Shown here: in pieces, positions 3,067-57,895 of the stretch
Layout of the letters: every line of letters starts with the position of its first letter
Position numbering within the stretch: position 1 is the first letter of the stretch
Virus record (IMG/VR): IMGVR_UViG_3300021963_000024
Origin: a virus
Lineage: Duplodnaviria; Heunggongvirae; Uroviricota; Caudoviricetes
Reading direction: 5' to 3' (one strand)
Length of the DNA: 64,000 nucleotides
Program-made: the position numbers and the translations under genes
The notes under the pieces: generated by a model
The model's database searches: none
What the model was told of the DNA's origin: nothing
Seen by the model: only the letters and a program-made list of their open reading frames with translations

Positions 3067-3827
3067 TATATTACTTTGTTCTTTACTATATAATTATAAA
3101 ATTCCTGACTTATTAGATTATACCCCAATGCATTAGGATGTTTACCAGGTTCATTAGTATCTTCAAAACAATCTGTGTTGGTTTCTTCTAAAAAATCTCT
3201 AAATGTTTTTTCACTAAATTTCCAATATAAATTTTTATTAATCAAATCTAAATAATTATCATCTAAATTTAAATTTTCAACATCTACCATTTTATCAAAA
3301 GCATCAGACATGATGTATTTAATTTCATAAAATTCTAATAATTTTTGTAAAAAAATAATATAATTTTGATTAACAATGTTGTAATAATTTTGATTAAAAA
3401 GATTTTCTAAAAAGAATGATTTATATTCTTTTAAAAATGAATCATATACATTATCATTACTTTTATAAGATTCTATAAATTTTTCAGGCTTATTTAATAA
3501 GTGTTTTACAGACCAACTAACCCATTGTTGTCTTGGTAAAAATGCGGCATAATCTCTTAAAGATGAACTCCACATTATAATAACCAAATCATTCTTTTTT
3601 ATTCTGCCTGTAACAACATCATCTATTATGGAGTTGAATATTACCGCATTTGGATTACCACTTTTACCATTATTAATCCAATTAACATTAAGCGATTCCG
3701 CCAATGTTTTTACCCAAGAATGGTTATTTCGGTATATTATTAAATCTTGGTTTTTTAAACTTTTTTCTTTTTTAATATTACAACCTTCACCCTCTGTCCA
3801 ACTATCTCCATATGCATGTAATATCAT
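3066..3827 (-). CDS. SGNH/GDSL-family hydrolase
   Basis: N-terminal block I GDSWTEGEG and C-terminal block V GKHPNALGY. Paralog of 13303-14124. Confidence 0.55.
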   Translation of the reverse strand: MILHAYGDSWTEGEGCNIKKEKSLKNQDLIIYRNNHSWVKTLAESLNVNWINNGKSGNPNAVIFNSIIDDVVTGRIKKNDLVIIMWSSSLRDYAAFLPRQQWVSWSVKHLLNKPEKFIESYKSNDNVYDSFLKEYKSFFLENLFNQNYYNIVNQNYIIFLQKLLEFYEIKYIMSDAFDKMVDVENLNLDDNYLDLINKNLYWKFSEKTFRDFLEETNTDCFEDTNEPGKHPNALGYNLISQEFYNYIVKNKVI

Positions 3828-7689: not shown

Positions 7690-8577
7690 TTATATAAAGT
7701 TTATAATTGCTAAATCTTTTGCTTTTGCCTCAATCTCAACATCAATATCAACACCATATGAATTTGGTAATTCATTGATATAATCGGAGTGAGCTTGGGG
7801 TTTTAATTTTGTATTATTTTCGTGTAATGATTTTGATTCCGAATAATGTGTCAATTGTTTGATATTTGCCGGCCATGTTGTAGCTGCTAATTGAAGTGCC
7901 TGTTCTTCGGATAAATCACCTGTGCAAAATTTGTGGTGGTGATAATCAAATACAATCGGAATACCCGTATTTTTGTGAATATACATCAAATCTTTAACTG
8001 AATACATTGATGCTTTATCATCATTCTCAATTGTAAGCCTATTTTTAACCGAATTAGAACATCTTTGGAAGTTTTTGATAAATCTATCCATCGCAGAGTT
8101 TTTATCTCCGTAAACACCATTACAATGAATATTAATTGCGTTATATTGAGTTTGAGATAATCCCATAGCATCCATAATTCTACCATGCACCTCTAAATCC
8201 TTAATTGTATTCAAAACTACACTTTCTTTTGGGGAAGTCAATACATTAAACGGACCTGGATGGAATGTTAGGCGTTGTCCATACAACCATGCTTTATCAC
8301 CACATCTTTTTAGTATGTTTGATATTGCTTTCCAATCTTTTAGTTGTGTAAATTCGTATTCGGTAGCCCATGGGAACATTTCTGAACTCATTCGGTATAA
8401 TTTAATACCCATTTCTTCATTCCAATCAATGATTCGTTCTAAATCGGCAACATTTTGTAATACCAAATCAGAAACATAATCCAAACCTTTTTCCGTAAAG
8501 GTTTTTTTAATCATTGTTCGATTTGTAGTTATTTTTTTACCTAATGAAAGGTTTATACAAGCATATCCTATATTCAT
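7690..8577 (-). CDS. uvdE: UV-damage endonuclease UvdE
   Basis: N-terminus IGYACINLSL...LYRMSSEMFP is characteristic of UVDE TIM-barrel endonucleases. 295 aa. Confidence 0.7.
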   Translation of the reverse strand: MNIGYACINLSLGKKITTNRTMIKKTFTEKGLDYVSDLVLQNVADLERIIDWNEEMGIKLYRMSSEMFPWATEYEFTQLKDWKAISNILKRCGDKAWLYGQRLTFHPGPFNVLTSPKESVVLNTIKDLEVHGRIMDAMGLSQTQYNAINIHCNGVYGDKNSAMDRFIKNFQRCSNSVKNRLTIENDDKASMYSVKDLMYIHKNTGIPIVFDYHHHKFCTGDLSEEQALQLAATTWPANIKQLTHYSESKSLHENNTKLKPQAHSDYINELPNSYGVDIDVEIEAKAKDLAIINFI

Positions 8578-11175: not shown

Positions 11176-12240
11176 TTAAATTATAGATTTTTTTATTTCT
11201 ATTAAATCATACATATTATGAAATACATATGGATTGGTGGCTACCTTTTTGAACTCATCTAAAAACAAAGAATGTTCTGGATGTAGCACATTACCCACAT
11301 CAATCATTTTAAAGGTTTCATCGGAAAATGTTCCCCAATTAGTTATTCTTCCAAAAAATACTTTTGTTTTATTACCAAATATGAAAGTAATTAATCTTAA
11401 AAATTCAGACATTTCTGTATAATTAGATTGTTGAACTACAAATGAACATTTTACAGTTTGTATACTTTTTATGGTTGAAATAAAATTAAGATTGGATATT
11501 AAATTATCCCAATTACCACCCAATCTTGTTACATTTTCGTATGTAAATTTTGAACCAGCATCAATACTTATTTCACAACTCTTTACATAATCATGTATTT
11601 CCGGCATACTATCCCACATTTCCTTATTCCATAAACTGGCATTTGTATGTAAGTGTATTGATTTTAAATTTGGATATTTTTTAGGATTAAATTTTCTTAA
11701 AAAATTTCTATATGAAACGGAAGCAAACGGGTCTGCAGTGCCTGAACAATATATCATTTCTATATCGTTTGCATATAGAGATTCCATTTCTTCTATTGTT
11801 ATATTTATTTTTTGTATTTTATCACTATTTGCAACAATCATTTCTATTCTACAAGATGGGCATTTATAATTACACGTCCTATCAAAACTCATATGTATGG
11901 TTTTTGGTCCCTGATACATTTTTCCTGTTTCAAAATTGTAATTATTAAAAAAAGATGGGTCTATTTGAGAATAATGTTTTATAGGACCTAAATTATTGGT
12001 TTTTAAATTTATTAATTGAGATAGATACGGACATTGTTTTTTATCACAATAAAGATATGAACCATTCAATACCGATTTTCTAATATCCTTTGCCTCATCA
12101 CTATTCCACACATCTTTCATAGGTTGATTCTTTGGTAAGTGTTTTTTTAACCAACTTGCACAGCATAAAAAATAAGATTCATCATGTATTTCCAATATTT
12201 CAAATGGAACTTTGCATATATAATCTTTTAAATCAATCAT
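11176..12240 (-). CDS. radical SAM enzyme with N-terminal Cys-rich domain
   Basis: CxxxCxxC cluster FDRTCNYKCPSC and a glycine-rich CSGTADPF. N-terminal C-x15-CC ... C-x4-CPYLSQ cluster. Paralog of 39091-40290. Confidence 0.6.
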   Translation of the reverse strand: MIDLKDYICKVPFEILEIHDESYFLCCASWLKKHLPKNQPMKDVWNSDEAKDIRKSVLNGSYLYCDKKQCPYLSQLINLKTNNLGPIKHYSQIDPSFFNNYNFETGKMYQGPKTIHMSFDRTCNYKCPSCRIEMIVANSDKIQKINITIEEMESLYANDIEMIYCSGTADPFASVSYRNFLRKFNPKKYPNLKSIHLHTNASLWNKEMWDSMPEIHDYVKSCEISIDAGSKFTYENVTRLGGNWDNLISNLNFISTIKSIQTVKCSFVVQQSNYTEMSEFLRLITFIFGNKTKVFFGRITNWGTFSDETFKMIDVGNVLHPEHSLFLDEFKKVATNPYVFHNMYDLIEIKKSII

Positions 12241-12764
12241 TATATTAAATTGTAATTATAATCATCTTTATTTCCTTTTCTCAATCTATTTTTATCATTT
12301 AAATCATAGATATCTTCATAATAAGTTATTGGTATATTTGTTTTTTGCGATATATAGTTTAATTCATCATTCCACAACTTTATGTTATAAAATGCTTCAT
12401 CATAGTTTGGTGTTTTTTCCCAAAGATATTGTGATATAGATGAAAAATTCGATGTTTTCATTTTATAGTTTAGATAAGACCAACTTTCCGCACATGCCTT
12501 TAAATCTCTTCTACTTAATAAAATTGTTTTTTCAAATTTTGATATCAAACTTATTAACCAGTCTACTCTATTGGATTCTTTTATAGAATTTGGTTTATGA
12601 AATATAATTGTTTTTATAACTACATTATGAATATTATTTTGAGTATTTATTTTATTAAATGGATTAAATGGTTCAAAATTATAAACCAATTTATTATCAA
12701 TTGCTAATTTTTTACCTAATTCGGTGGAACCTGTTCTTGGTAAGGAAATTATTAAAATATTCAT
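12240..12764 (-). CDS. sulfotransferase (NodH-like PAPS-binding motif)
   Basis: N-terminal ISLPRTGSTELGKKL matches the 5'-PSB loop of NodH/Stf-type sulfotransferases. 174 aa. Confidence 0.4.
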   Translation of the reverse strand: MNILIISLPRTGSTELGKKLAIDNKLVYNFEPFNPFNKINTQNNIHNVVIKTIIFHKPNSIKESNRVDWLISLISKFEKTILLSRRDLKACAESWSYLNYKMKTSNFSSISQYLWEKTPNYDEAFYNIKLWNDELNYISQKTNIPITYYEDIYDLNDKNRLRKGNKDDYNYNLI

Positions 12765-13306
12765 ATCAATTTTTTTGATTTATCTAATTGATAATATTTA
12801 AAATCTGTATTTGTCATCCATATATTTAATGCATATCTAATACCTGAATAGACTGGCATTACACCGTGATATGTTTTACTACCATCAAATGAAATAGATT
12901 CACCAATATTTAGTATGTATTTATTTCCATTTTTTATATCATCCATTTTTTCGGATAATACGAAGCTACCATCACTAAATCCGGCCGATAAAACTATAAC
13001 TGTTGTAAATTGTGATGTAGTATCTAAATGCAAATCCAACCATCTATTATCATAATACTTTGTCAAACTAATATTTACATCCTTTATATTAAATTTATTC
13101 AAATCAAACCATAATTTAAATTCATTTTTATTATATTTTTCTTTGATTTTTTGAATTATATTTGATTTAAATTCATCATCATAAATTCTTTTACAATCCC
13201 ATACTTCATTTGGATTATATGAAAATTGTATGCCATTATTTTCTGCAAATTCTATTATAGATTGGCATTCTTTTTTATCAAACAAATTGTTTATATAATA
13301 ATTCAT
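12761..13306 (-). CDS. 2OG-Fe(II) oxygenase
   Basis: HxD (HLDTT), distal His (TYHGV) and Arg (RYALNIW) at canonical spacing. Confidence 0.55.
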   Translation of the reverse strand: MNYYINNLFDKKECQSIIEFAENNGIQFSYNPNEVWDCKRIYDDEFKSNIIQKIKEKYNKNEFKLWFDLNKFNIKDVNISLTKYYDNRWLDLHLDTTSQFTTVIVLSAGFSDGSFVLSEKMDDIKNGNKYILNIGESISFDGSKTYHGVMPVYSGIRYALNIWMTNTDFKYYQLDKSKKLI

Positions 13307-14124
13307 ATAATAATATTTTCGATATTGTTCGTCTTATATGTTAATATGTTTTTATTTAATATAAAATCATATAGTTCATTCGCAATTAATTTATATCCAT
13401 TTTTGTTAGGATGTTTACCCTCTGTTAAATCTTTCCAATGTTGTCCATCTCCCCACACATCCTTTCTATTTGTATTTATTAATAAATCTTTTAAAGTTTT
13501 ATTTGAAATACCCCAATAATGGTTTTTATCAATTAGATTAGTTTTATCTATGTTTTTTGAAATATCATCTTTTATCATTAAATCAAATGCATCACAAAAA
13601 ATATATCTTATACCAATTTTTTTAAACATCCATTGTAAATATAAAATATAATTTTGGTTTACGATTTGATAATATTCATCCGTAAATAAATTTGCTAAAA
13701 AATATTCTTGATATTCTTTTTTTATTCTATCGTATTTTGTAGTTATATTTGTATTTTTAAATACTTTTTTATACAAATATTCTTTTCGTTTATATCTCTC
13801 ACCCCAATAGTGCCAGGAATTATTATCAGGAAAAAATGGAACAGAATCTCTTAAAGATGAACTCCACATTATAACAACCAAATCATCTTTTTTAATTAAA
13901 TCGGTATCTACTGAATTACAAACTGCATCAAATATACTTTTATTAGAACAACCACCTATTCCAAAATTATCAAAAGGAATATTTAAATGTTTTGATAACA
14001 ATGTAGGCCATGCGTATTTATGACGTATTTTTGTTCTTTCTTCTAAATCTTCGGTTTTTAATTCTTCCTGCCAATCGGAACCAACTCCTTCGGTCCAACT
14101 ATCACCGAATGTAAATAATTTCAT
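13303..14124 (-). CDS. SGNH/GDSL-family hydrolase
   Basis: FGDSWTEGVG block I and GKHPNKNGY block V. Paralog of 3066-3827. Confidence 0.55.
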   Translation of the reverse strand: MKLFTFGDSWTEGVGSDWQEELKTEDLEERTKIRHKYAWPTLLSKHLNIPFDNFGIGGCSNKSIFDAVCNSVDTDLIKKDDLVVIMWSSSLRDSVPFFPDNNSWHYWGERYKRKEYLYKKVFKNTNITTKYDRIKKEYQEYFLANLFTDEYYQIVNQNYILYLQWMFKKIGIRYIFCDAFDLMIKDDISKNIDKTNLIDKNHYWGISNKTLKDLLINTNRKDVWGDGQHWKDLTEGKHPNKNGYKLIANELYDFILNKNILTYKTNNIENIII

Positions 14125-14858
14125 TAAATAATAGATTTAACTCTTTTGTATGAACCATCAATATATGTATCGACAAATTTTATTAATTCATCGGTTTTCA
14201 ATATTGCAGAATAATCTAATTGCGTTTTATTTTTATGAATTAACTTAAAATCTATATTAAGTTTTTTTGATATATAATCTTCAAATTCATATAATCTATC
14301 AAAATGAAATTCTTTTACTTTTACTTTTGATGATGATATCCATTGATATTGCGATACGAATGACATAATGTGTATTGCGTATCTTTTTTTAAATTCATCG
14401 GATATATTATAATATTGAATTACACCCGCCGTTTCTAATAATTTTATTAGGAGATTTACTCTAGTTTCATAAGATATATACGCATTTTTGAATTCGTATA
14501 TGTTGTCTTTAAAAAAAGAAATTATAAAATTATTATCTAAATTTTTAAGGATATTTGAACCCTCTTCGGATATACTTTGAATTATTTCTTGTATAAAAAA
14601 TTTCCAAGCTGATATAAATCTATCCGTAGAATTTCTTATTATACATACAAATTCAAAATCCATACCAAGCGAATCAATTAAATAATTTATATCCGAATGA
14701 ATATGTTTTTCTGGATTTTTTACTCCAAATTTAATAGAATTTTCCCATAAAATATTCGGATATGTTAAATCCAACCCGTATTCAATACAAGTATCTTCTA
14801 CCGACCAAGATGCATTTTTTGGTATTGGTATAAAAACAATACAATTATTTATAACCAT
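14124..14858 (-). CDS. hypothetical protein, possible carbohydrate-sulfotransferase-like
   Basis: IPIPKNASWSV weakly resembles the Sulfotransfer_2 5'-PSB (IPKTGST). Weak evidence. Confidence 0.3.
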   Translation of the reverse strand: MVINNCIVFIPIPKNASWSVEDTCIEYGLDLTYPNILWENSIKFGVKNPEKHIHSDINYLIDSLGMDFEFVCIIRNSTDRFISAWKFFIQEIIQSISEEGSNILKNLDNNFIISFFKDNIYEFKNAYISYETRVNLLIKLLETAGVIQYYNISDEFKKRYAIHIMSFVSQYQWISSSKVKVKEFHFDRLYEFEDYISKKLNIDFKLIHKNKTQLDYSAILKTDELIKFVDTYIDGSYKRVKSII

Positions 14859-15001
14859 TTTAATAAAATTTATGAACCAGTTACATCCGTATAAATTAAG
14901 TTTGCGACCTGCTGCATAATAGTTGCAATGGCCTGATTTGTGGTGTTATTGGTTAATACTATTTCCGAAGAAATTATTTTATCTTTCATTTTTAATTATT
15001 T

Positions 15002-16537
15002 TTAAAGTTTTGAAGGAGGTTGGCCACCACAGAAACCACATGCACTACAACACCAAACTGCACACATCCAAGCACCACACCAACCATAACATGTACCGTT
15101 GTGTTGTACAAAAGTAAGTCCCAATGTTTCATCTGCTAATGGTAAAAACAAATCATTTGTTTCAACATTTATATCATATATTTTTTTATTAACATATACG
15201 ATTTCCAAATTTGTTATTTTTGATTTTACTAAAGTATTATTCACATAATCAAAAAATACAATTGAATCATTTATTCTAAATCTATTTGTAAATACAAATG
15301 TAGTTTGTAATGTATCGTATTCCTCTACCAACATAGAACTAGCCGGCAAATCTTCATAAACTATACCATTTTCCAATGTTACCCTAATCATTAGGGATTC
15401 TTTAGTTTGTGTTCCTAAATCAATTACGGTTGTATTTGATTGAGTAAATGATTCTAAGTCAGAGCTGAAACTTCCTGAATTCAAATCTGGCATATATAAT
15501 ACTTCTCCTGTTTCGGATGTTTCATTTAGTGGAACCCAAGGAAGAGTTATCGTTTTTAATGAATCATTAACTAAAATTTGATTTGGATATTTAAAACTTC
15601 CATCTGAATATAATATTGGTGTATCATCATCCAAAATATAAGTTGTACCAAATTTACTTATTAGGGATTTACTCATCCATAATACTCTGGAATTTTGTTC
15701 CATTTTACCATTTGTATCATATTCGGTTACCCACGCATCATTTTCAACACCGGCCGTCATAATATACGAACCCAAATGTAATATACTTAATGTTCCACCA
15801 TATATTATATCCAAACTTCTTATTACGCCTATTTTATTATCAATAAAATTATCCGGGTGTGTGTGGTATTCTTCTATATATTCCAATTCTGTTAATGAAT
15901 CTTTTAAAGATTGTAAAGATTCCAATGATTGTATTTTGTAAAACTTTGGATAAGTTAAATAATTTGTATTTGGATATCTTGTTTTTACAATATAATTCGG
16001 TGCATCGCCGGCTGTAGTATGTAAATTTACTAATTGGTCTATATTAAGATTTGTATCAGTTTCTGAATGATAATACACGTTTGGTGCAAATGTTTCATTT
16101 GAAATTACTCTATGAAAATTTACCTTATCTTTTGCATAATTTTCATCTACTAATGCAGTAGTATCATATGATGTTCTCAGTATTAATACATCATCCGCAT
16201 CTTCTATATATGGAACTGTTATTGAATTTTTAGGAACTTCATAGTGGTTGAATGTGCCTGATAATTCAACCATTATTTCACTCATTTTATCTTTTAAAGA
16301 TATATTTTCTGTTGTTGTATCAAATACATTTTCTTTTTCCGTATTTATAAAATTACCATCCGTATATATAAAATGCAATTTTGTAATAGAATTATCTATT
16401 AAAAATTGCTTAAATGTATTCCAATCCAATTGTGGAACAATTTTGTTATGAACATCCACATTTGTGTTTGTTTCTATTATTCTTAAATTACCGGATGCAT
16501 CCTTTAAAAAATCCGTTCCAATTATTAATGCTTTCAT
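15002..16537 (-). CDS. hypothetical 511-aa protein with C-terminal 8-Cys tail
   Basis: Large ORF whose C-terminal 30 aa are CYGWCGAWMCAVWCCSACGFCGGQPPSKL. No other motif recognised. Confidence 0.45.
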   Translation of the reverse strand: MKALIIGTDFLKDASGNLRIIETNTNVDVHNKIVPQLDWNTFKQFLIDNSITKLHFIYTDGNFINTEKENVFDTTTENISLKDKMSEIMVELSGTFNHYEVPKNSITVPYIEDADDVLILRTSYDTTALVDENYAKDKVNFHRVISNETFAPNVYYHSETDTNLNIDQLVNLHTTAGDAPNYIVKTRYPNTNYLTYPKFYKIQSLESLQSLKDSLTELEYIEEYHTHPDNFIDNKIGVIRSLDIIYGGTLSILHLGSYIMTAGVENDAWVTEYDTNGKMEQNSRVLWMSKSLISKFGTTYILDDDTPILYSDGSFKYPNQILVNDSLKTITLPWVPLNETSETGEVLYMPDLNSGSFSSDLESFTQSNTTVIDLGTQTKESLMIRVTLENGIVYEDLPASSMLVEEYDTLQTTFVFTNRFRINDSIVFFDYVNNTLVKSKITNLEIVYVNKKIYDINVETNDLFLPLADETLGLTFVQHNGTCYGWCGAWMCAVWCCSACGFCGGQPPSKL

Positions 16538-16574
16538 TTTTTTATTGTCTTATTTATATAAATATATTGGTTTT

Positions 16575-17216
16575 TTAAATTAAACTACTAATTTTTTTCG
16601 CAGATTCAAATCCTACATTACCCGCTATAACAATTCTATTTTTTGTTGAATTGGGTGAATTATTTGGTGAATGTTCTAAATTAGATTTCATAATAACCAC
16701 TTCACCTTCTTCTGGTAAATAATAATATCTTTTTTTGTTTTTACCTTCTACTATTAAAGTGCCTTCCGTATCTGATAGATTATTTGGCATTTGGGCATAA
16801 TATACAAAAGTATATTCCGGATAAAAAGAATTTATAATTTTTTGCAAATCTATGTGGTTATGTAATTTAACATCACCACCATATTTAAAATTATTTTGTT
16901 TTGGTTTTCCAGTTTTTACAACATTTATCCAAGCATTAATATTAACTTTATTAAAATTCAGTTCATCTTTTATACCTAACTCAACACATTCATTCAAACA
17001 AATTTTAATAATTTCTTCAATATAATTCGATGGTATCATTTCTTTTTTAAAATCAAAACTACCCCAATCGTTTAAATATGGATAATTATCTTGGGGAACA
17101 TAATTGGCGGTAGATAAAAATGATATACAATTTCCTAAAACATCAGATTGTAACTTTGTATTTTCTAATTTTACTATATACAAATCTACACCATCTTCAA
17201 ACGTAATTTTTTTCAT
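16575..17216 (-). CDS. 2OG-Fe(II) oxygenase-like protein
   Basis: HID (LHNHIDLQ), distal His (NLEHSP) and Arg (NRIVIAGNV). The C-terminus resembles that of 17506-18159. Confidence 0.4.
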   Translation of the reverse strand: MKKITFEDGVDLYIVKLENTKLQSDVLGNCISFLSTANYVPQDNYPYLNDWGSFDFKKEMIPSNYIEEIIKICLNECVELGIKDELNFNKVNINAWINVVKTGKPKQNNFKYGGDVKLHNHIDLQKIINSFYPEYTFVYYAQMPNNLSDTEGTLIVEGKNKKRYYYLPEEGEVVIMKSNLEHSPNNSPNSTKNRIVIAGNVGFESAKKISSLI

Positions 17217-17218
17217 AA

Positions 17219-17506
17219 TTAAATAATTGTTTTAGTTTTAACTTTTAGAGTTTTTATATATTTTTCTTCAACACTATTCCACTTTGATTTTGGACATGTT
17301 CCGGCCTGGTCTGTAAATATTTTCTTTTCTAAAGGACATCCACATCCACCACATATTGCAGACCATTTTTTATTGTGTATAATTTCTTTTCTAAACTCAC
17401 ACTTCATACAAATGCTCATACGTTCTTCTGCTAAACTCTTTTGTGTTGAATTAGGGTTGAATGATGTAATCCAAGCATTAATAATTTCTTTAGGATTAAA
17501 ACTCAT
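17219..17506 (-). CDS. zinc-ribbon protein
   Basis: CMKC...CGGCGC...C; 95 aa. Confidence 0.4.
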   Translation of the reverse strand: MSFNPKEIINAWITSFNPNSTQKSLAEERMSICMKCEFRKEIIHNKKWSAICGGCGCPLEKKIFTDQAGTCPKSKWNSVEEKYIKTLKVKTKTII

Positions 17507-18159
17507 TATATTATACTTTTTTTATTATCTATTAAACTGACATTACCCGCAACTGATATCCGTTCTACATCTTTTGTAAAAAATGGACTAACATAATGCA
17601 TTAAATACGCTGGAAATATAAACATTTCCCCTGTAATCGGTGAATGATTTATCTGTGTTATCGGTGACATATAACTATTTACCGTATTTGAAAATTCTTG
17701 TGCATTTGAATCAAATTTTTTTACATTTTGTCCATATAAAAATGATATACTTCCATTTTGAAATCCTCTTTTAATAGTTTTTTCATTTTTAATTTCATCC
17801 GGCATATCCACATATATTACAAAGGATATATCATATGCATGAAAATGTGGAGAATTAAAATCTCTACTTTTTTGAAAATTAATCCATAAATCTTCAATAT
17901 TAATTCCAAATCGAAATGGCTTTAAATTTCTAATTTTGGCAATTTCTTTTATATAATTTTCTATATAAACGGAAATTTTATTTTTAAAATAACTTACATT
18001 TTCAAAACTATATTTGTAAGATGTATCAAATGTTATGGAATCGAGCTTATTATCTATTAAAATTTCATTTCTCCCAACGGATAGAAGTTCTTTACATAAA
18101 TCCAAATCAATATTGGTTTTCATTAATTCGGGCCCGAAATTATATTTTGTAAATTCCAT
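17506..18159 (-). CDS. 2OG-Fe(II)/PhyH-like oxygenase (tentative)
   Basis: PHFHAYD, LMHYVSP and ERISVAGNV at cupin-like spacing. Weaker than the neighbouring oxygenases. Confidence 0.35.
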   Translation of the reverse strand: MEFTKYNFGPELMKTNIDLDLCKELLSVGRNEILIDNKLDSITFDTSYKYSFENVSYFKNKISVYIENYIKEIAKIRNLKPFRFGINIEDLWINFQKSRDFNSPHFHAYDISFVIYVDMPDEIKNEKTIKRGFQNGSISFLYGQNVKKFDSNAQEFSNTVNSYMSPITQINHSPITGEMFIFPAYLMHYVSPFFTKDVERISVAGNVSLIDNKKSII

Positions 18160-18722
18160 TATATCAATTCTGTTTTATTATTTTCTATTTTTTTTAATTT
18201 CAACCAACTAACTAATGAATATCTTTTTCCTGATTCTACGGGTTTTACTCTATGTAATATTGCCGATGGAAATATAAACATATTACCTTTTCCTGGTTTT
18301 AATGTTATAGAATTTTCTAACATTAATTGAAAATCACCAGAAGTATACTCATCATTTAATTGTATCACAACTGTATATATTCTATCTTTAAAGATATTAT
18401 CATTTGAATCAGAATGCCAATCAAAGTAATCGCCTACATTATATTCTGTAAATTGAAAACTTTCAACATATAATTCATAACCTCTTTGTTTCGGTGTTCT
18501 TTTTAATATTTCATTTGTAATTTTTGTATTGATGTTATTTAAATCACCCACAAATGCAACTTTTGATTTTCTTGTCTTTTTCTGACTTTCTTTTTTATAT
18601 GTATTGTATACTTCCGCATCTTTTAAATCCAAATCAGAAAGACATTTATCTATAATCCATTCACATTCTTCATTTGATAGAAACTTTGGAATTACCGATA
18701 TACCTTTATCTTCTAATATCAT
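18159..18722 (-). CDS. 2OG-Fe(II) oxygenase (prolyl-hydroxylase-like)
   Basis: HxD (WHSDSND), distal His (AILHRVKPV) and Arg (KRYSLVSW). Confidence 0.6.
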   Translation of the reverse strand: MILEDKGISVIPKFLSNEECEWIIDKCLSDLDLKDAEVYNTYKKESQKKTRKSKVAFVGDLNNINTKITNEILKRTPKQRGYELYVESFQFTEYNVGDYFDWHSDSNDNIFKDRIYTVVIQLNDEYTSGDFQLMLENSITLKPGKGNMFIFPSAILHRVKPVESGKRYSLVSWLKLKKIENNKTELI

Positions 18723-35218: not shown

Positions 35219-36013
35219 TTAATATTTATCAAAAAATTCTTGATTATATTCTAATTGATAATTTTTCAAATCAAAATGAACTCCATTTATTTCTTTTAAC
35301 AAAGAATAATCAACTAACAAATCTAATTCGTTACTATTAAATATGCCGGTTTCTTTAAACATTTCAAATATTTTTTTCTTTGAAAGGCAATAACTTCTAT
35401 GCCAACCAAATGTAGTTTCATAATATTTTGTATCTTCAAAAAAACAAAATTTATTCAAAACATTTTCTTCAGGCCATTTAAACTTAAAAGGTGTTGCATA
35501 TTCCTGTGTAAATTCGTTATCAAAAAAGGTAGAATAAAATGCATCTTCCGAACCTTTATTATAAGTTTCATTTATTTTGGATATATCTTGCATTACTTTC
35601 GTATTGCGTAAACTAAATCCACCATTTATCAAAGAATGACCTCCACCCAAATACGGATAATTAAAAAATTCATTATCAAAATAAAAATTATGAAATCTAG
35701 GAAACCCATCCCATTGAATTATTAAATACCAATCCGTTTTTATTAAATGTGGTAATTGTTTTATTAGAAAGTTGTTATACCAAGCTATTCCGCCAGAATT
35801 TTCCCAATCGAATGGCCAAAGTGTTTCAAACTTCTGTTCGATTAATTCTTTATTTTTATTAAAAGGATTGACCATTAAAACATCACCGAAATTAATGTGT
35901 TTACAAATTTCAGGAACCAATCTACTAACCGCCGCCAATCTAATATTGGATTTATTTGGATTATCTTTAACCGAATCTATTGAAACTAATGTAACATTTT
36001 CTAAATTAATCAT
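35219..36013 (-). CDS. hypothetical protein (possible nucleotide-sugar transferase-like)
   Basis: 264 aa with Trp/Phe-rich motifs. No firm motif. Confidence 0.4.
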   Translation of the reverse strand: MINLENVTLVSIDSVKDNPNKSNIRLAAVSRLVPEICKHINFGDVLMVNPFNKNKELIEQKFETLWPFDWENSGGIAWYNNFLIKQLPHLIKTDWYLIIQWDGFPRFHNFYFDNEFFNYPYLGGGHSLINGGFSLRNTKVMQDISKINETYNKGSEDAFYSTFFDNEFTQEYATPFKFKWPEENVLNKFCFFEDTKYYETTFGWHRSYCLSKKKIFEMFKETGIFNSNELDLLVDYSLLKEINGVHFDLKNYQLEYNQEFFDKY

Positions 36014-37434: not shown

Positions 37435-37683
37435 CTATTTGTTTTTATCATTTATAAATTTTTCAAATCCTAATTGCTCGTTTTCTTTTGCAATCTTTTT
37501 TACACTATCATAATCAAATTCCGTATTAGATATTGCAGAACTTATACTTGCAAATCTTTTGGTGTGATAACTACTTAGTGGCGATGTGTGTTGTTTTAAG
37601 TGTAATGCTTTTGCATCCAAGTATTCAAACAATTCATCATCTGTCATTTGTTTTAATTCTTCATCCGTTTTATTAAACTCCAT
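37435..37683 (-). CDS. hypothetical protein
   Basis: 82 aa ORF. Confidence 0.35.
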   Translation of the reverse strand: MEFNKTDEELKQMTDDELFEYLDAKALHLKQHTSPLSSYHTKRFASISSAISNTEFDYDSVKKIAKENEQLGFEKFINDKNK

Positions 37684-39089
37684 TATATTAAAGTTTGTTT
37701 TGCTAATGAATTTATTATATTTTTACAATCATCTTTATATGCTTCTTTGGAATAATCTAAAAATAATTGCTGATTGTGTTTAACAATATCTTTTACATTA
37801 AGTAAAAATTCATCCTTTTCTTCTTTTGATTTTTTAGTAAACTTTTCTATTTGTTCAAAAATCATTTCCAATCTTTTAAAATCATCGGTTTCTATATCAT
37901 AACTTTCATCAATGTATGGATGAAAGGTTTTATATCCTAAACTTTGTAAGTATTGTAAAGATTTAGCAGGACCGGCTAATATGAATGGTTGTGCGTGTCC
38001 TATTGGTTTCCAAATCTTTTCACTTAGATATCCTGTTGGAAATTCTACATATACATCTTCATCATCTCTAACTTGAAAAAATATAGATTCCGAAACTAAA
38101 CTGATATAAGAATTTAAATATATTGATTTATTTTCAAAACCATATCCTGCTATTTTAGTCAAATCCGATACATCTAAATTTTTAGAAACCGTTTTAACTA
38201 TTTCTGCCAATTCTAAATTTTCATCATGTTTTAAAAATTCAGTAATTACATCTTCGTGATAAAACTTTTTATCCCAAGATGTATTATTGTAAAATAGTTT
38301 TCCAAGTTTATGTAATTTTGAAAGTATAAGTAATCTATGCAACTTCCAATGTCTACATAAAAATAAAAAATCCTTTTTTTGATTTCCTATACTATTTTCA
38401 AATTCTTCAAATGTTAAAACACTATTTGCAGTATGTTCGGTTTGTCCAAATTGTGGTTCAAATGAATTATCACCCCAAAATTTAAAATCAGGATTATTAA
38501 TTATGTTATTAAACTCCTGTGATTTAGATAGTTGTGCTAAATTAAAATCAAATACATTGTAATTAACACCCATCTTTTTAAGATTTGATTGTAGTTTAAA
38601 ATCCTGAAATATCAGGTAAACCTTTTCATCGGGTATTTCGTTTTCTCTTGTAAAATCAACTAACTTTTTGAAATTCGATTTTGTAATTCCTAATCCACCA
38701 TCAATGATATAGTTAATTAATAAATTACCATTACCACTTTTGATTTCATTCAATGCTACTGATGAAATTTGTTTTAAACATAATTCATTAAAGGTAGGAT
38801 GGTTTCCAAAAAAACTTTCAATACTTCCAAACGGTTCTACCGGATAAAACCATTTTGTGTTTTTGTGATTATTTATAATTTCATATACTGATTTTTTATC
38901 AACATAGTTATTCCAAAAATTGGAATTATATAAATGCCAACCGATATTCCATCTATTTTGAAAATGCTCTCCTGAGAATGCATAATTAAAATCGGAAGCT
39001 TGATATATTGTATTCAAAAATTTTGGATGCAGACAATTTGGCATTTCACCATTGTAAGTCATAATATCATATCCAAATAATACTTTCAT
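37683..39089 (-). CDS. hypothetical 468-aa protein (partner of second radical SAM gene)
   Basis: Large ORF coupled (39089/39091) to the radical SAM paralog. No motif recognised. Confidence 0.45.
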   Translation of the reverse strand: MKVLFGYDIMTYNGEMPNCLHPKFLNTIYQASDFNYAFSGEHFQNRWNIGWHLYNSNFWNNYVDKKSVYEIINNHKNTKWFYPVEPFGSIESFFGNHPTFNELCLKQISSVALNEIKSGNGNLLINYIIDGGLGITKSNFKKLVDFTRENEIPDEKVYLIFQDFKLQSNLKKMGVNYNVFDFNLAQLSKSQEFNNIINNPDFKFWGDNSFEPQFGQTEHTANSVLTFEEFENSIGNQKKDFLFLCRHWKLHRLLILSKLHKLGKLFYNNTSWDKKFYHEDVITEFLKHDENLELAEIVKTVSKNLDVSDLTKIAGYGFENKSIYLNSYISLVSESIFFQVRDDEDVYVEFPTGYLSEKIWKPIGHAQPFILAGPAKSLQYLQSLGYKTFHPYIDESYDIETDDFKRLEMIFEQIEKFTKKSKEEKDEFLLNVKDIVKHNQQLFLDYSKEAYKDDCKNIINSLAKQTLI

Positions 39090-39090
39090 T

Positions 39091-40290
39091 TTAAATTAAA
39101 CTTTTTTGTATTTTAAATGGTTTTGTTTTTTCTTTTTCATCCTCAATAATCAAATCATTAAAATTATTATCAACATGTGGTAGTTGATGTATTCTTTTTA
39201 ACTCTTTCATAAAATCGGAAAACAATGGATGGTCTTTTTCAAATACACATAAATCTTTTAATTCTTCGGGTGTAAATGTTCCCCACTGCACCAATCTTCT
39301 ATAATTTATAACCAATACTTTTTTATGTTCGAACAAAGGTTTTAATAACTCCCAAAACATATACATTTCTTTGTAGTTATTTTTACTAACAGTCATAGAA
39401 AATACAACTCTTTCTACACTTTCTAATTTTGAAAGAAATAGTAAATTTTGTATAAGCGTTTCCCAAACTCCACCCAATCTAACTTTGGTTTCATATGTTA
39501 ATTTAGTTGCAGCATCTATACTTATTTCGATACACTTAACATATTGATGTATATTTGGCATGGTATCCCACATCTGCTTATTTAATAAAGAGCCATTCGT
39601 AACCAATTGTATTTCTCTTAACTTTGGATATTTTTTAGGGTCAAAATTTTGTAAATATTCTCTAAATATTTTTGAATAAAACGGGTCACCAGAACCTGTT
39701 ATTATAATTTTTCTTAAATTCCAAGAATATTGTTCATCTATTTTATCAATAATGATTTTTTTTCTTTTATATTCTATCGAATCAACATCATCATTTGGTA
39801 TTAAATGTGTTCTGCAAGATGGGCATTTGTAATTACAACTTCTATCAAATCCAAAAAGTATTTCCTCAGGTGTAATATCAAAGTTTTCAATATCTTCTAT
39901 CGAGCTGATATTTAATTCTTTCATCAGTTCTTCTTTCAATTGAAAGTTATATGGAATAACCTCTTTACCTTCAATTTGACTCTTACTTAATATTTGAGAT
40001 AAACACGGACAAACAACTTTATCACAAGACTCATATGAACCATCTAAAATATCCCTTCTAACTTTTTTGGCTTGTGGTGAAGTCCAATTTCTTAATAAAT
40101 CTTCATCTTCATCAACTGCAAACCAAGGATTTGGTTCACCTTCTTTATTAACTCTTAAATTAGTTTTATTCCAAAAAGGACAACAAACGAAATTACCAAG
40201 CGGTTGAACATCTATATATTTAAATGGAGAATTGCAGGCATACTTATTAAGTATTTCTTTTTCAAAATTGTTTTCCTTATTATCTATCAT
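39091..40290 (-). CDS. radical SAM enzyme with N-terminal Cys-rich domain (paralog 2)
   Basis: GFDRSCNYKCPSCR (CxxxCxxC) and ITGSGDPFYSK. N-terminal C-x14-CC...C-x4-CPCLSQ. Paralog of 11176-12240. Confidence 0.6.
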   Translation of the reverse strand: MIDNKENNFEKEILNKYACNSPFKYIDVQPLGNFVCCPFWNKTNLRVNKEGEPNPWFAVDEDEDLLRNWTSPQAKKVRRDILDGSYESCDKVVCPCLSQILSKSQIEGKEVIPYNFQLKEELMKELNISSIEDIENFDITPEEILFGFDRSCNYKCPSCRTHLIPNDDVDSIEYKRKKIIIDKIDEQYSWNLRKIIITGSGDPFYSKIFREYLQNFDPKKYPKLREIQLVTNGSLLNKQMWDTMPNIHQYVKCIEISIDAATKLTYETKVRLGGVWETLIQNLLFLSKLESVERVVFSMTVSKNNYKEMYMFWELLKPLFEHKKVLVINYRRLVQWGTFTPEELKDLCVFEKDHPLFSDFMKELKRIHQLPHVDNNFNDLIIEDEKEKTKPFKIQKSLI

Positions 40291-41783: not shown

Positions 41784-42002
41784 CTAACGATATAAAGTTA
41801 CAAATTCTCCAAAATGTTTATCAAATACTTTGAGTAGGTTTTCATAATCACCACTCATCATTTCCTCTCTGATTTTCTTTTTATCCAAATCCAATTGCTT
41901 TGCTAAATTACCAGCAATTCCGATTAGATTAAATGCGTTACCATCCGGTCCGGTCAAATCTATTTCAACGGGACCTGTTTTCATTTTCTTATACTTTATC
42001 AT
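41784..42002 (-). CDS. hypothetical protein
   Basis: 72 aa ORF. Confidence 0.3.
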   Translation of the reverse strand: MIKYKKMKTGPVEIDLTGPDGNAFNLIGIAGNLAKQLDLDKKKIREEMMSGDYENLLKVFDKHFGEFVTLYR

Positions 42003-42589
42003 ACCTTTAATGATTTAATATGTTTACACTCTTTACCGCCTGTATATGTGAACGAAGGACAATCACACTCCCATGTTCCATTATCTTCAATTACATTATA
42101 CTTTACATTTGGGTCTTTTGATGAAACCACTTGATGTTTTTTCACTTTGGTTAATCCTTTCTCTTTTAATTTTCTTTCAATCAAAGAGTCAACTTGACTA
42201 TCCGATATCCAACCCGCTCTATTCTTTCTAAACTCCGAAAAGAAATATTGGTCATCAAATAATGCATCCAATACTTTTATGGATATATCCTCACCTTCAC
42301 TTACGGCTACATGATAAAGATTTTGGTCGGCATCCTTTACAAATTTACCGTCATCGGCGTAATCACCGGCAACAACAATGTTATCACCTGCCCAACTACC
42401 AACGATTTCGTTTTCACTATTAAGGTCACCACCACCTCTACCATTTCCGTCAGCAAGTAGAATTGCCAAACCTGCCAACACACCATTTGCTGACATACTA
42501 AATTCCATTAACTTTGCACCATCACCAAATGTATGTGGGGTGATATACTGCTTTTTCTTTACATTTACTATTTTGTAATACTGACCCAT
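41999..42589 (-). CDS. SWIM zinc-finger protein
   Basis: C-terminal WECDCPSFTYTGGKECKHIK (CxC...CxH). Confidence 0.45.
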   Translation of the reverse strand: MGQYYKIVNVKKKQYITPHTFGDGAKLMEFSMSANGVLAGLAILLADGNGRGGGDLNSENEIVGSWAGDNIVVAGDYADDGKFVKDADQNLYHVAVSEGEDISIKVLDALFDDQYFFSEFRKNRAGWISDSQVDSLIERKLKEKGLTKVKKHQVVSSKDPNVKYNVIEDNGTWECDCPSFTYTGGKECKHIKSLKV

Positions 42590-56578: not shown

Positions 56579-57895
56579 CTACCAAACGATAGTTTCTTCA
56601 TCACCTTGTTCATCTTTCACTTCATTGAAAAGTGCTTCATCTGTTGATTTAACATATTTTTGAACAAGTTGTTTAATAAATACTCTTTCACTATCCAACC
56701 CACCATCATTACTGAAATATGGTAAGATAGCGATTTCAGCCGCTTCCATTAAGGTAAACCCATCATAGATAAGACCGGCAGCTTCCACATTCACACGTGT
56801 CGAAATGATTGTTGAGATTTTACTCATATCAGTTTTGATTAACTGACGAGTTGTATCAGCAATCTCGGATAAAGCTTGTAATGCATATTCATCAGCTTCA
56901 GGGAATTTGAATTTCAACAATGCCAATTCACTATCCTTATCCAACAAATCCATTTCAATAGTTACGAAACGGTCCATAATCGCACGGTCCATAATACGTG
57001 TAGACGTATATTCGTTACCAATGTTTGCCGTTGCGATGAATGTAACACCATTTGCTACTTTAACAATTGGTGAACCTTCAGCCTCGTCCAATCGTAAATA
57101 ACGCTGTCCGGCATCCAACACAGTCATTAAGATATTCCAAGCTTCTGGGTGAGCACGGCTAATCTCGTCCAATAGGATGATTGCGTTTGGAGTGCTGATT
57201 GCTTTTACGAAAGCGGATTCAGCAAAGAATGTTCCGTTTTCTTTATTAAAGTGTGTGTTACCGATAAGAGTAGCACGTGGGTCTTGCGTTGCACCTAAGT
57301 TGAAATAAAAGTCAGGACGCTTCAATGAACGAACTAACGATTGAGATGCCAAAGTTTTACCACAACCAGTAGGACCAGTCATCATAATATTCTTACCACG
57401 AACTGCTGAACGAAGAAGATACTTCCACTTAAGCGGTTCAATGAATAATCCTTCAGGTTTCAATTCACCACCTTTCTCGTGGATAAATTGTTTCAAATGT
57501 TCGTGTGTTTCAAATGCTTCACTTACACTATCACATGCAGCATCTTCAATAACATTTGCTAATTTTTTAAATTCATCCATCTCAACAAGTTTGTAAGAAA
57601 GATTACCACTTTTGTTTACAAAACCACGGATTGCTTTATTCTCCGTATGTGCTTGTTTCATTTTTTGTTTCGAAATACCATCGACTTTTGTATCAATGAT
57701 ATCACTCTTTGTGGTCATAAGTGCGAAACTTCTACCCACTTGCACAATTTTGTAACATTCATTTGTGAAACCTACATTGGTATCCACTGTCTTTTGAGTT
57801 GTTTTGCGTCCACTCACACGCTTTGCCGTTTTACGAGCCATAGTTTTCGATTTAGTAGTTTTTGTAACATTTTTCTTACGCATAGAAATATCCAT
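56579..57895 (-). CDS. cobS: AAA+ ATPase, MoxR/CbbQ/CobS-like
   Basis: Walker A GPTGCGKT, Walker B ILLDEISRA, and IATANIGNEY...MDRF typical of AAA_5. N-terminal basic extension. Confidence 0.7.
   Translation of the reverse strand: MDISMRKKNVTKTTKSKTMARKTAKRVSGRKTTQKTVDTNVGFTNECYKIVQVGRSFALMTTKSDIIDTKVDGISKQKMKQAHTENKAIRGFVNKSGNLSYKLVEMDEFKKLANVIEDAACDSVSEAFETHEHLKQFIHEKGGELKPEGLFIEPLKWKYLLRSAVRGKNIMMTGPTGCGKTLASQSLVRSLKRPDFYFNLGATQDPRATLIGNTHFNKENGTFFAESAFVKAISTPNAIILLDEISRAHPEAWNILMTVLDAGQRYLRLDEAEGSPIVKVANGVTFIATANIGNEYTSTRIMDRAIMDRFVTIEMDLLDKDSELALLKFKFPEADEYALQALSEIADTTRQLIKTDMSKISTIISTRVNVEAAGLIYDGFTLMEAAEIAILPYFSNDGGLDSERVFIKQLVQKYVKSTDEALFNEVKDEQGDEETIVW

What the first reader, a model, noticed from the sequence alone, without database searches (positions are those of the whole stretch)
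39091..40290. Two divergent radical SAM paralogs sharing an unusual N-terminal C-x14-15-CC ... C-x4-CP(Y/C)LSQ domain
ORFs 11176-12240 and 39091-40290 share the rSAM core (FDR(T/S)CNYKCPSCR, (S/T)G(T/S)(A/G)DPF, HT/VTN(A/G)SL(W/L)NK, MWD(S/T)MP(E/N)IH(D/Q)YVK(S/C)(C/I)EISIDA). Both also carry an N-terminal Cys cluster that precedes the radical SAM core, placed unlike a canonical C-terminal SPASM/twitch domain. Each is coupled to a different large partner, the tailoring operon and the 468-aa ORF 37683-39089 respectively. This suggests a duplicated enzyme adapted to two substrates.
Basis: seen in the sequence. Interest (0 to 1): 0.6.

Follow-up and report, generated by a model that had tools for sequence, protein, structure and literature searches.

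The report
Phage radical SAM enzymes, N-terminal twitch
Two real but only distantly related radical SAM enzyme genes in an uncultured T4-like phage carry their extra iron-sulfur (SPASM/twitch-type) domain in front of the catalytic core instead of behind it; they belong to a large uncharacterised family that sits in phage sugar-tailoring gene clusters.

Summary
ORFs 39091-40290 (399 aa) and 11176-12240 (354 aa), both on the minus strand, are full-length homologs (37% identity, E 6e-82). Both have the CX3CX2C radical SAM motif and five N-terminal cysteines, spaced C-x16-CC...C-x4-C rather than x14-15.

These cysteines are 95-100% conserved in 37 non-redundant phage and 55 bacterial homologs. The domain has twitch topology, and Pfam SPASM matches it above threshold in family members. 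The best NCBIfam hit is NF033640, "N_Twi_rSAM", at 57 bits against a cutoff of 170. So the architecture is already catalogued, but this is a separate sister family. Members that pass the NF033640 cutoff lie beside it in related phages.

The two genes are not recent duplicates. They represent two old clades with different conserved neighbours:
- Clade A lies with GT-B glycosyltransferases (the 468-aa partner is one) and nucleotide-sugar enzymes.
- Clade B closes an operon of sulfotransferase-like, 2OG-oxygenase-like, GDSL-like and Hint-like genes.

The most likely role is radical tailoring of a sugar or glycoconjugate. The substrate and chemistry are unknown. No homolog was found in 50,697 GenBank phage records, and no characterised member was found. 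Interest is moderate.

The parts
39091..40290 (-). rSAM-A, a 399-aa radical SAM enzyme of clade A in the short N-terminal-twitch family
   Evidence: ORF. Pfam PF04055 31.4 bits, NF033640 57 bits. 1871 homologs. AF2 model pLDDT 88. The core matches viperin, BlsE, DesII and MoaA.
39970..40251 (-). N-terminal SPASM/twitch-like domain of rSAM-A (aa 14-107), with C19, C36, C37, C89 and C94; the predicted auxiliary Fe-S site
   Evidence: Cys conservation is 87-92 of 92. Modelled topology is Cys, beta-hairpin 25-29/32-34, CC, helix 72-82, C-x4-C. Pfam SPASM matches this region above threshold in family members P0350, P0345, P0404 and P0378.
39814..39837 (-). CX3CX2C motif (C152, C156, C159) that binds the SAM-cleaving [4Fe-4S] cluster
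   Evidence: Invariant in 92 of 92 homologs. Coordinates.
37683..39089 (-). 468-aa partner, a GT-B-fold glycosyltransferase of an uncharacterised family. Its start codon lies 1 nt after the rSAM-A stop codon.
11176..12240 (-). rSAM-B, a 354-aa radical SAM enzyme of clade B in the same family and the last gene of the tailoring operon
   Evidence: ORF. 37% identity and E 6e-82 to rSAM-A. NF033640 56.7 bits. Clade assignment.
11992..12231 (-). N-terminal SPASM/twitch-like domain of rSAM-B (aa 4-83; C9, C26, C27, C65, C70)
   Evidence: Weak Pfam SPASM hit at aa 25-70, E 0.65.
12240..18722 (-). Conserved clade-B operon upstream of rSAM-B. Gene order: 2OG-like (187 aa), 2OG-FeII_Oxy_5 (217), Cys-rich 95-aa protein, 2OG-FeII_Oxy_3 (213), Hint-like 511-aa protein with a Cys-rich tail, sulfotransferase-2-like (244), GDSL-like (273), 2OG-like (181), sulfotransferase-like (174).
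   Evidence: Pfam and PHROG hits. The same gene families and order recur in L070, L076, L082, L087, L090 and L069. Enrichment against clade A is p 7.8e-05 to 0.02.

Best explanation
Both ORFs encode working radical SAM enzymes of a large, biochemically uncharacterised family. In this family the SPASM/twitch-type auxiliary iron-sulfur domain sits N-terminal to the partial TIM-barrel core. The family is a shorter sister of NCBIfam NF033640 (N_Twi_rSAM).

Mechanism, inferred from the superfamily:
1. The CX3CX2C cluster reductively cleaves SAM to the 5'-deoxyadenosyl radical.
2. That radical abstracts a hydrogen atom from the substrate.
3. The N-terminal cluster, ligated by four of the five invariant Cys, then accepts an electron from the substrate radical or positions the substrate. 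BtrN and MoaA work this way.

The two genes belong to two old phage clades. Clade A (39091-40290) travels with GT-B glycosyltransferases, including the adjacent 468-aa ORF. In related phages it also travels with nucleotide-sugar enzymes: 4,6-dehydratase/epimerases, RmlC, a split PDH-E1-like thiamine enzyme, carbamoyl- and SGNH-type transferases, and NF033640 members that pass the cutoff. Clade B (11176-12240) is the last gene of an operon of sulfotransferase-like, 2OG-oxygenase-like, GDSL-like and Hint-like proteins.

The most likely role of each is an accessory radical tailoring step, such as oxidation, epimerisation or dehydration, on a sugar or glycoconjugate that the neighbouring enzymes build or transfer.

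Shown: homology, Cys conservation, domain order, predicted fold, and gene-neighbourhood association. Inferred: Fe-S binding, the carbohydrate substrate, and the chemistry.
For: - Paralogy: E 6e-82.
- Cysteines: C19, C36, C37, C89 and C94 plus the CX3CX2C triad are conserved in 87-92 of 92 phage and bacterial homologs. No other Cys is conserved.
- Model: the AF2 model (pLDDT 88) places one Cys before a beta-hairpin, CC after it, and C-x4-C after a helix. This is the canonical twitch arrangement described in PMC6231123.
- NCBIfam: NF033640 is the top hit over aa 16-324, including the Cys region.
- Pfam: SPASM is above its gathering score on the N-terminal Cys region of family members P0350, P0345, P0404 and P0378. 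These members were retrieved at E 1e-57 to 1e-72.
- Core fold: nearest structures are viperin, BlsE, DesII and MoaA, which act on nucleotides or nucleotide-sugars.
- Partner: GT-B fold.
- Neighbourhoods: clade-specific in 36 non-redundant phage loci. Fisher tests give GT-B partner 13/22 A against 2/16 B (p 0.0065), epimerases 10/22 against 1/16, c2 2/22 against 12/16, and c7 2/22 against 11/16.
- Cluster content: RmlC-like and PDH-E1-like genes, and NF033640 members scoring 283-293 bits, lie in the same clusters.
- Accessory role: cluster L012 equals cluster L045 minus the radical SAM gene, which fits an optional tailoring step.
- Other glycan links: a CBM48 carbohydrate-binding fusion and methyltransferase fusions occur in the family. 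A 908-aa GT+methyltransferase gene follows clade-B radical SAM genes in L082, L076 and L061.
- Bacterial neighbours include GT2, GDP-mannose dehydratase and GDSL genes.
Against: - No substrate is identified, and guilt by association is the only functional evidence.
- In the window itself rSAM-A has only the GT-B gene beside it, with no nucleotide-sugar genes.
- The commonest bacterial neighbours are other radical SAM/SPASM proteins (22 and 13 of 148). That pattern is also typical of peptide-maturation clusters.
- The second-best NCBIfam hits are protein or cofactor maturases, W_rSAM_matur and rSAM_Geo_metal.
- The glycine of the CX9-15GX4C motif is not conserved.
Confidence: 0.55

Rival explanations
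1. Peptide or protein maturase. The enzymes, clade B above all, modify a ribosomal peptide or protein, for example by Cys-to-carbon thioether cross-links, as most SPASM/twitch radical SAM enzymes do. A candidate substrate for rSAM-B is the Cys-rich 25-30-aa tail that follows the invariant His-Asn of the Hint-like 511-aa protein (15002-16537) in the same operon.
For: - SPASM/twitch enzymes are mostly RiPP maturases (PMC9012708; PMC6231123).
- Second-best NCBIfam hits are maturases.
- Bacterial neighbours are rich in other radical SAM/SPASM genes.
- The Hint-like protein lies near 11 of 16 clade-B genes against 2 of 22 clade-A genes (p 0.0003).
- H479 and N480 are invariant and a Cys-rich tail follows. 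In long homologs true intein/Hint domains follow at the same point.
Against: - No RiPP recognition element and no small precursor gene were found.
- Clade-A contexts are clearly nucleotide-sugar and glycosyltransferase clusters.
- Clade-B operons also carry sulfotransferase-like, GDSL-like and GT+methyltransferase genes that suit glycans.
- Three clade-B loci have Hint-like proteins without a Cys-rich tail.
- Autoprocessing is untested, and the residue after HN is not a nucleophile in most members.
Confidence: 0.2
2. DNA or nucleotide hypermodification. rSAM-A and the GT-B enzyme act on phage DNA bases or on free nucleotides, as T4 glucosyltransferases and the radical SAM enzymes of thymidine or 7-deazaguanine hypermodification pathways do.
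For: - The phage is T4-like; its ligase is 46% identical to that of Caulobacter phage Cr30.
- The nearest structures to the radical SAM core act on nucleotides: viperin and MoaA.
- Thymidylate-synthase-family genes lie within a few kb in L001, L008 and L040.
Against: - Clade-A clusters contain RmlC, dehydratases, E1-like enzymes, carbamoyl- and SGNH-type transferases, and up to four GT-B paralogs. That is far more than known DNA glycosylation needs.
- Nucleotide-metabolism genes are common anywhere in the early regions of T4-like genomes.
- No hydroxymethylase or DNA-modification marker was found next to the pair in the window.
Confidence: 0.1
3. Maturase of a metalloenzyme or cofactor, or activating enzyme for a partner protein. 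This is the role suggested by labels such as JGI's 'sulfatase maturation enzyme AslB' and the NCBIfam tungsten-oxidoreductase maturase hit.
For: - JGI names several homologs AslB.
- TIGR04317 W_rSAM_matur is the second-best hit, at 56 and 43 bits.
Against: - Scores are far below cutoff (380).
- There is no C-terminal SPASM domain and only one auxiliary Cys set.
- No sulfatase, oxidoreductase or glycyl-radical enzyme lies in any of the 36 phage neighbourhoods.
- The JGI names are generic COG labels.
Confidence: 0.05

Closest known systems
NCBIfam NF033640 'N_Twi_rSAM' (twitch domain-containing radical SAM protein)
   Same: - Same domain order: N-terminal twitch-type Cys domain, then the radical SAM core.
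- It is the best family hit for both window proteins, covering the Cys region.
- C19, C37 and C94 align with its invariant Cys.
- Members that pass the cutoff lie in the same phage sugar clusters as clade A.
   Different: - The window proteins score 57 bits against a cutoff of 170.
- They are shorter (350-400 aa against 400-520 aa).
- They have CC and C-x4-C where NF033640 members have a single C and C-x2-C.
- They share only 15-21% identity.
- No function was found for NF033640 in the searchable literature either.
BtrN (2-deoxy-scyllo-inosamine dehydrogenase), the archetypal twitch-domain radical SAM enzyme
   Same: - One auxiliary cluster, ligated by a Cys before a beta-hairpin, one after it, and two after the following helix (PMC6231123).
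- A carbohydrate-like substrate in a sugar-tailoring pathway.
- It serves as the model for the auxiliary cluster acting as electron acceptor (PMC9012708).
   Different: - In BtrN the twitch domain is C-terminal.
- There is no detectable sequence-level relationship beyond the superfamily.
- BtrN was not among the top structural hits.
Viperin, MoaA, DesII and BlsE radical SAM cores
   Different: - Only about 200 core residues align, at 13-20% identity.
- The NCBIfam viperin and MoaA models score 18-37 bits, against cutoffs of 180 and 450 for the two viperin models and 284 for MoaA.
- None has an N-terminal Cys domain.
GT-B glycosyltransferases (T4 beta-glucosyltransferase, GtfB-type, GT10 fucosyltransferases), compared with the 468-aa partner
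   Different: - Sequence identity is 7-11%.
- There is no Pfam, NCBIfam or PHROG family hit.
- Donor and acceptor are unknown.
AviB1/AviB2-type split E1-like enzymes of branched-chain sugar pathways
   Same: Related clade-A clusters carry a truncated PDH-E1 alpha-like plus beta-like pair next to the radical SAM gene, with RmlC-like and dehydratase genes. AviB1/AviB2 are proposed to install a C-4 acetyl branch on an octose using pyruvate (PMC4753412).
   Different: This is an analogy only. These genes are absent from the window, and no link between them and the radical SAM step has been shown.

Membership tests
Radical SAM superfamily (PF04055) | CX3CX2C motif for the SAM-binding [4Fe-4S] cluster | tested here: met
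   C152/C156/C159 in A and C123/C127/C130 in B. Invariant in 92 of 92 homologs.
Radical SAM superfamily (PF04055) | Pfam score at or above the gathering threshold, and a partial TIM-barrel fold | tested here: met
Twitch domain (truncated SPASM) | Beta-hairpin followed by a helix, with one Cys before the hairpin, one after it, and two after the helix (PMC6231123) | tested here: met
   Predicted secondary structure is C19, E25-29/E32-34, C36 and C37, H72-82, C89, C94. This comes from a model, not a solved structure.
Twitch domain (truncated SPASM) | Sequence homology to the SPASM/twitch domain | tested here: met
   The hit in the window proteins is weak (PF13186 E 0.65 in B). PF13186 is above its gathering score (23.7-75.8 bits against 21.5) on the aligned N-terminal region of family members P0350, P0345, P0404 and P0378.
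Twitch domain (truncated SPASM) | Located C-terminal to the radical SAM core (PMC9012708: 'C-terminal extensions') | tested here: not met
   The domain occupies aa 14-107, ahead of the core at aa 141-335.
Twitch domain (truncated SPASM) | Binds one auxiliary Fe-S cluster | not testable with these tools
   Needs reconstitution with EPR or Mossbauer spectroscopy. Only the near-invariance of the Cys supports it.
SPASM domain (full, two auxiliary clusters) | Seven-Cys motif CX9-15GX4C-gap-CX2CX5CX3C-gap-C | tested here: not met
   Only five conserved non-core Cys are present, with no CX2CX5CX3C block and no conserved C-terminal Cys.
NCBIfam NF033640 N_Twi_rSAM | Whole-protein score at or above the curated cutoff of 170 bits | tested here: not met
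   56.8 bits for A and 56.7 bits for B. Bacterial relatives score 45-99 bits. Neighbouring 405-516-aa phage proteins score 283-293 bits.
QueE, NrdG, MoaA, viperin, anSME (AslB) | Score at or above the equivalog cutoff of the respective model | tested here: not met
   NrdG2 scores 15 bits against 131. MoaA scores 23-25 against 284. The two viperin models score 18-37 bits against cutoffs of 180 and 450. No QueE or anSME model is listed at E 1 or better.
GT-B glycosyltransferase fold (468-aa partner) | Two Rossmann-like domains matching solved GT-B enzymes | tested here: met

The most novel reading that the evidence does not exclude
The short N-terminal-twitch radical SAM enzymes are a new functional class confined so far to uncultured phages and scattered bacteria. 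Clade B may cross-link or otherwise modify the Cys-rich tail that a degenerate Hint (intein-like) domain releases from the 511-aa operon protein. That would be a phage-encoded system for making modified peptides that uses autoproteolysis instead of a leader peptidase. Clade A may carry out previously unseen radical chemistry on a phage-made glycan.
Probability: 0.12. Interest if true: 0.8.

Novelty: new variant of a known kind. Interest (0 to 1): 0.45.

Why it matters
SPASM/twitch auxiliary-cluster domains are defined in the literature as C-terminal extensions. A family of more than a thousand 50%-identity clusters with the domain in front would test how the auxiliary cluster reaches the active site.

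The family is abundant in uncultured freshwater phages: at least 515 IMG/VR contigs carry it. It is absent from 50,697 deposited phage records. It therefore marks a block of phage glycan-tailoring genes that cultured model phages do not represent.

Identifying the substrate would show what these large phage sugar islands build. The candidates are virion glycans, modified host envelope and modified DNA.

Tried and rejected
- PHROGs: no family for rSAM-A, rSAM-B or the partner.
- tblastn of all three proteins against 50,697 GenBank phage records: no match.
- PDB sequence search: only weak core matches, and nothing for the N-terminal domain.
- Rosetta-stone test: the extra N-terminal regions of fused family members P0308 and P0309 are not homologous to the 468-aa partner (hhalign probability 0.3%). 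tblastn found no partner homolog in 80 bacterial loci.
- Source names for cluster members are only generic COG labels, AslB or MoaA/NifB/PqqE/SkfB.
- Literature searches for 'N-terminal twitch', 'NF033640' and phage radical SAM plus glycosyltransferase plus sulfotransferase found nothing relevant. Grell et al. 2015 was not held.
- Composition: GC is 23-26% at the two loci against about 30% for the window, so there is no clear island.
- The idea that the giant gene after clade-A clusters is a tail fibre was dropped. The 1731-aa gene in L045 starts with a cytidylyltransferase domain.
- Cys-Cys distances in the AF2 model could not be measured because coordinates are not exposed to the scripting tool.

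Full report
**Observation.** Both ORFs are real and lie on the minus strand of a window in which every sizeable ORF is on that strand. rSAM-A (39091-40290, 399 aa) and rSAM-B (11176-12240, 354 aa) align end to end at 37% identity, E 6e-82. The N-terminal cysteines are C19, C36, C37, C89, C94 in A and C9, C26, C27, C65, C70 in B. The spacing is C-x16-CC ... C-x4-CP(C/Y)LSQ, not x14-15. The radical SAM triad is C152/C156/C159 in A and C123/C127/C130 in B. Pfam Radical_SAM passes its threshold for A (31.4 against 29.5 bits) but not for B (19.3).

**The N-terminal domain.** I aligned 37 non-redundant phage homologs with 55 bacterial homologs of 25-35% identity.
- The five N-terminal Cys are conserved in 90, 90, 87, 92 and 92 of 92 sequences.
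- The core triad is conserved in 92 of 92.
- No other Cys is conserved, so there is one auxiliary site and no C-terminal one.

The AlphaFold2 model (pLDDT 88.2, pTM 0.87) places C19 at the end of a short strand. A beta-hairpin follows (25-29/32-34), then C36-C37, a helix (72-82), C89-x4-C94 and another helix. This is the canonical twitch arrangement: one Cys before the hairpin, one after it, and two after the following helix, as described for BtrN and SkfB (PMC6231123).

The best NCBIfam match for both proteins is NF033640 'N_Twi_rSAM, twitch domain-containing radical SAM protein'. It scores E 2e-15 and 57 bits over aa 16-324, but the curated cutoff is 170.

A profile search of 1.84 billion representative proteins found 1,131 clusters at E 1e-30 or better. 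In several of these members (P0350, P0345, P0404, P0378), Pfam SPASM (PF13186) scores above its gathering threshold on the region that aligns with the window's Cys domain. That region is N-terminal to Radical_SAM. So the domain is a SPASM/twitch homolog in a permuted position. The literature defines these domains as C-terminal extensions (PMC9012708). Fe-S binding itself is inferred, not shown.

**Family and relatives.** rSAM-A has 1871 database homologs at E 1e-3 or better. The closest are 88% and 80% identical, on contigs of 142 and 202 kb, and the rest are 43-54%. At least 515 IMG/VR viral contigs encode a relative. In reference genomes, 203 loci do so, in Bacteroidota, Acidobacteriota, Bacillota, Bdellovibrionota and other phyla.

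None of rSAM-A, rSAM-B or the partner has a tblastn match in 50,697 GenBank phage records, and none has a PHROG family.

The bacterial relatives also hit NF033640 best but below cutoff, at 45-99 bits. The larger 405-516-aa 'rsam-like' proteins that sit beside clade-A genes in related phages score 283-293 bits. They therefore pass the NF033640 cutoff. They share C19, C37 and C94 with the window proteins, but have a single Cys instead of CC and C-x2-C instead of C-x4-C, at 15-21% identity. The window proteins are thus a shorter sister family of NF033640, not members of it.

The window belongs to an uncultured T4-like myophage. Its ligase is 46% identical to that of Caulobacter phage Cr30, and it carries a carbamoyltransferase like those of cyano- and pelagimyophages.

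**Two clades, two neighbourhoods.** I called ORFs in 96 sequences (95 fetched loci plus the window), clustered them by all-against-all BLASTP, and reduced the loci to 36 non-redundant groups. A neighbour-joining tree separates a clade containing rSAM-B from a clade containing rSAM-A. Each window protein is far closer to orthologs in other phages than to the other window protein: B reaches 71% and A reaches 88%. This is an old split, not a duplication within this genome.

| Neighbour within 6 kb | Clade A | Clade B | Fisher p |
|---|---|---|---|
| Paralog of the 468-aa partner | 13/22 | 2/16 | 0.0065 |
| NAD epimerase/dehydratase | 10/22 | 1/16 | 0.012 |
| Split E1-like pair | 10/22 | 1/16 | 0.012 |
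| c2 (2OG-like) | 2/22 | 12/16 | 7.8e-05 |
| c7 (Hint-like) | 2/22 | 11/16 | 0.0003 |
| c10 (sulfotransferase-like) | 0/22 | 6/16 | 0.003 |
| c8 | 1/22 | 7/16 | 0.005 |
| c11 | 1/22 | 7/16 | 0.005 |
| c4 (GDSL-like) | 6/22 | 11/16 | 0.02 |

Clade-A clusters also hold RmlC-like genes (115 bits), PDH-E1 alpha/beta-like pairs, carbamoyltransferases, SGNH-like genes and NF033640 members. In L045 and its relatives the cluster is followed by a 1731-aa gene with an N-terminal cytidylyltransferase domain.

Cluster L012 is the L045 cluster without the radical SAM gene, so the enzyme is an optional tailoring component. The partner also occurs with no radical SAM gene within 6 kb in L008-L011.

In the window, rSAM-A keeps only the partner. 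An upstream 108-aa gene overlaps its start (ATGA), and the partner's ATG lies 1 nt after its stop.

rSAM-B is the last gene of a ten-gene operon (18722 to 11176). The gene content and order recur in L070, L076, L082, L087, L090 and L069.

**Mechanism.** Shown: homology, Cys conservation, domain order, predicted folds and neighbourhood association. Inferred from the superfamily: the CX3CX2C cluster cleaves SAM, the 5'-deoxyadenosyl radical abstracts a substrate hydrogen, and the N-terminal cluster accepts an electron (as in BtrN) or anchors the substrate (as in MoaA).

The carbohydrate assignment rests on several lines:
- the clade-A gene clusters;
- the GT-B partner;
- a CBM48 fusion and methyltransferase fusions in the family;
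- GT+methyltransferase genes after clade-B radical SAM genes;
- GT2, GDP-mannose dehydratase and GDSL neighbours in bacteria;
- the nearest solved cores, which are the nucleotide- or nucleotide-sugar-acting viperin, BlsE, DesII and MoaA.

I put this reading at about 0.55. The exact chemistry is open.

**Rivals.**
- *Peptide or protein maturation* (0.2) is the most serious, mainly for clade B. SPASM/twitch enzymes are mostly RiPP maturases, and bacterial neighbours are rich in other radical SAM/SPASM genes. The operon's 511-aa protein has a Hint-like C-terminal domain with invariant His479-Asn480, followed by a Cys-rich tail of 25-30 residues. Long homologs carry true intein/Hint domains at that point. 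Against it, there is no recognition element or small precursor, and the rest of the operon suits glycans.
- *DNA or nucleotide modification* (0.1) is suggested by the T4 BGT hit and the T4-like background. However, the BGT score is not distinctive, and the clusters are far richer than known DNA glycosylation pathways.
- *A cofactor or metalloenzyme maturase* role (0.05) rests only on generic labels and sub-threshold hits.

**Novelty and limits.** The domain order is already catalogued in NF033640, so the architecture is not categorically new. New here are:
- a distinct short sister family that fails the NF033640 cutoff;
- its division into two old phage clades with different gene partners;
- its abundance in uncultured phages with no cultured representative;
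- the absence of any characterised member found here, and of any NF033640 function in the searchable literature.

Two limits remain. All functional evidence is by association.

Noticed in passing
window 15002-16537 (-): A 511-aa protein in the clade-B operon. Its C-terminal ~190 aa are Hint/intein-like, with invariant H479-N480. A Cys-rich tail follows (GTCYGWCGAWMCAVWCCSACGFCGGQPPSKL). In longer homologs (L061, L095, L084), true Hint domains (CFVAGT...VHN) follow at the same point, with Pfam Intein_splicing at E 3e-24. The N-terminus is weakly ATP-grasp-like (E 0.06-0.3). It may autoprocess to release a Cys-rich peptide.
   Followed up: partly
window 17219-17506 (-): A 95-aa Cys-rich protein (CxxC ... 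CxxCGCP ... C) that sits close to the Hint-like protein, usually adjacent to it, in related phages. Its only match is phrog_13558, of unknown function.
   Followed up: partly
L004 4096-9104; L072 209-10307; L067 3439-6503: Some jumbo-phage contigs, such as a 353-kb one, carry three to seven N-terminal-twitch radical SAM genes close together or in tandem. These mix NF033640-type members with the short family, next to UDP-glucose dehydrogenase and sugar nucleotidyltransferase genes.
   Followed up: partly
L045 11334-16526; L012 7461-12755: A giant 1731-1765-aa gene directly after the GT-B gene begins with a cytidylyltransferase domain (phrog_395). This suggests a multidomain glycopolymer synthase rather than a tail fibre.
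   Followed up: partly
window 35219-36013 (-): A 264-aa DUF5672 protein lies 1.7 kb downstream of the partner. It is conserved at the same relative position in close relatives (L001-L003).
   Followed up: no
window 41999-42589 (-): A 196-aa protein that ends in a SWIM-like zinc-finger motif (CDCPSF...CKHIK).
   Followed up: no
window 3827-5521, 7690-8577, 56579-57895 (-): Auxiliary genes typical of aquatic T4-like phages: a Nol-like carbamoyltransferase (phrog_1601), the UV endonuclease UvdE (PF03851, E 5e-67), and a CobS/MoxR-like AAA ATPase (phrog_249).
   Followed up: partly
L096 6600-9104 (Bdellovibrio MAG); P0308: The closest bacterial-genome relative (46% identity) is an 829-834-aa fusion. 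Its ~467-aa N-terminal region has no Pfam match and is not related to the 468-aa partner. The contig may be phage DNA binned into a MAG.
   Followed up: partly
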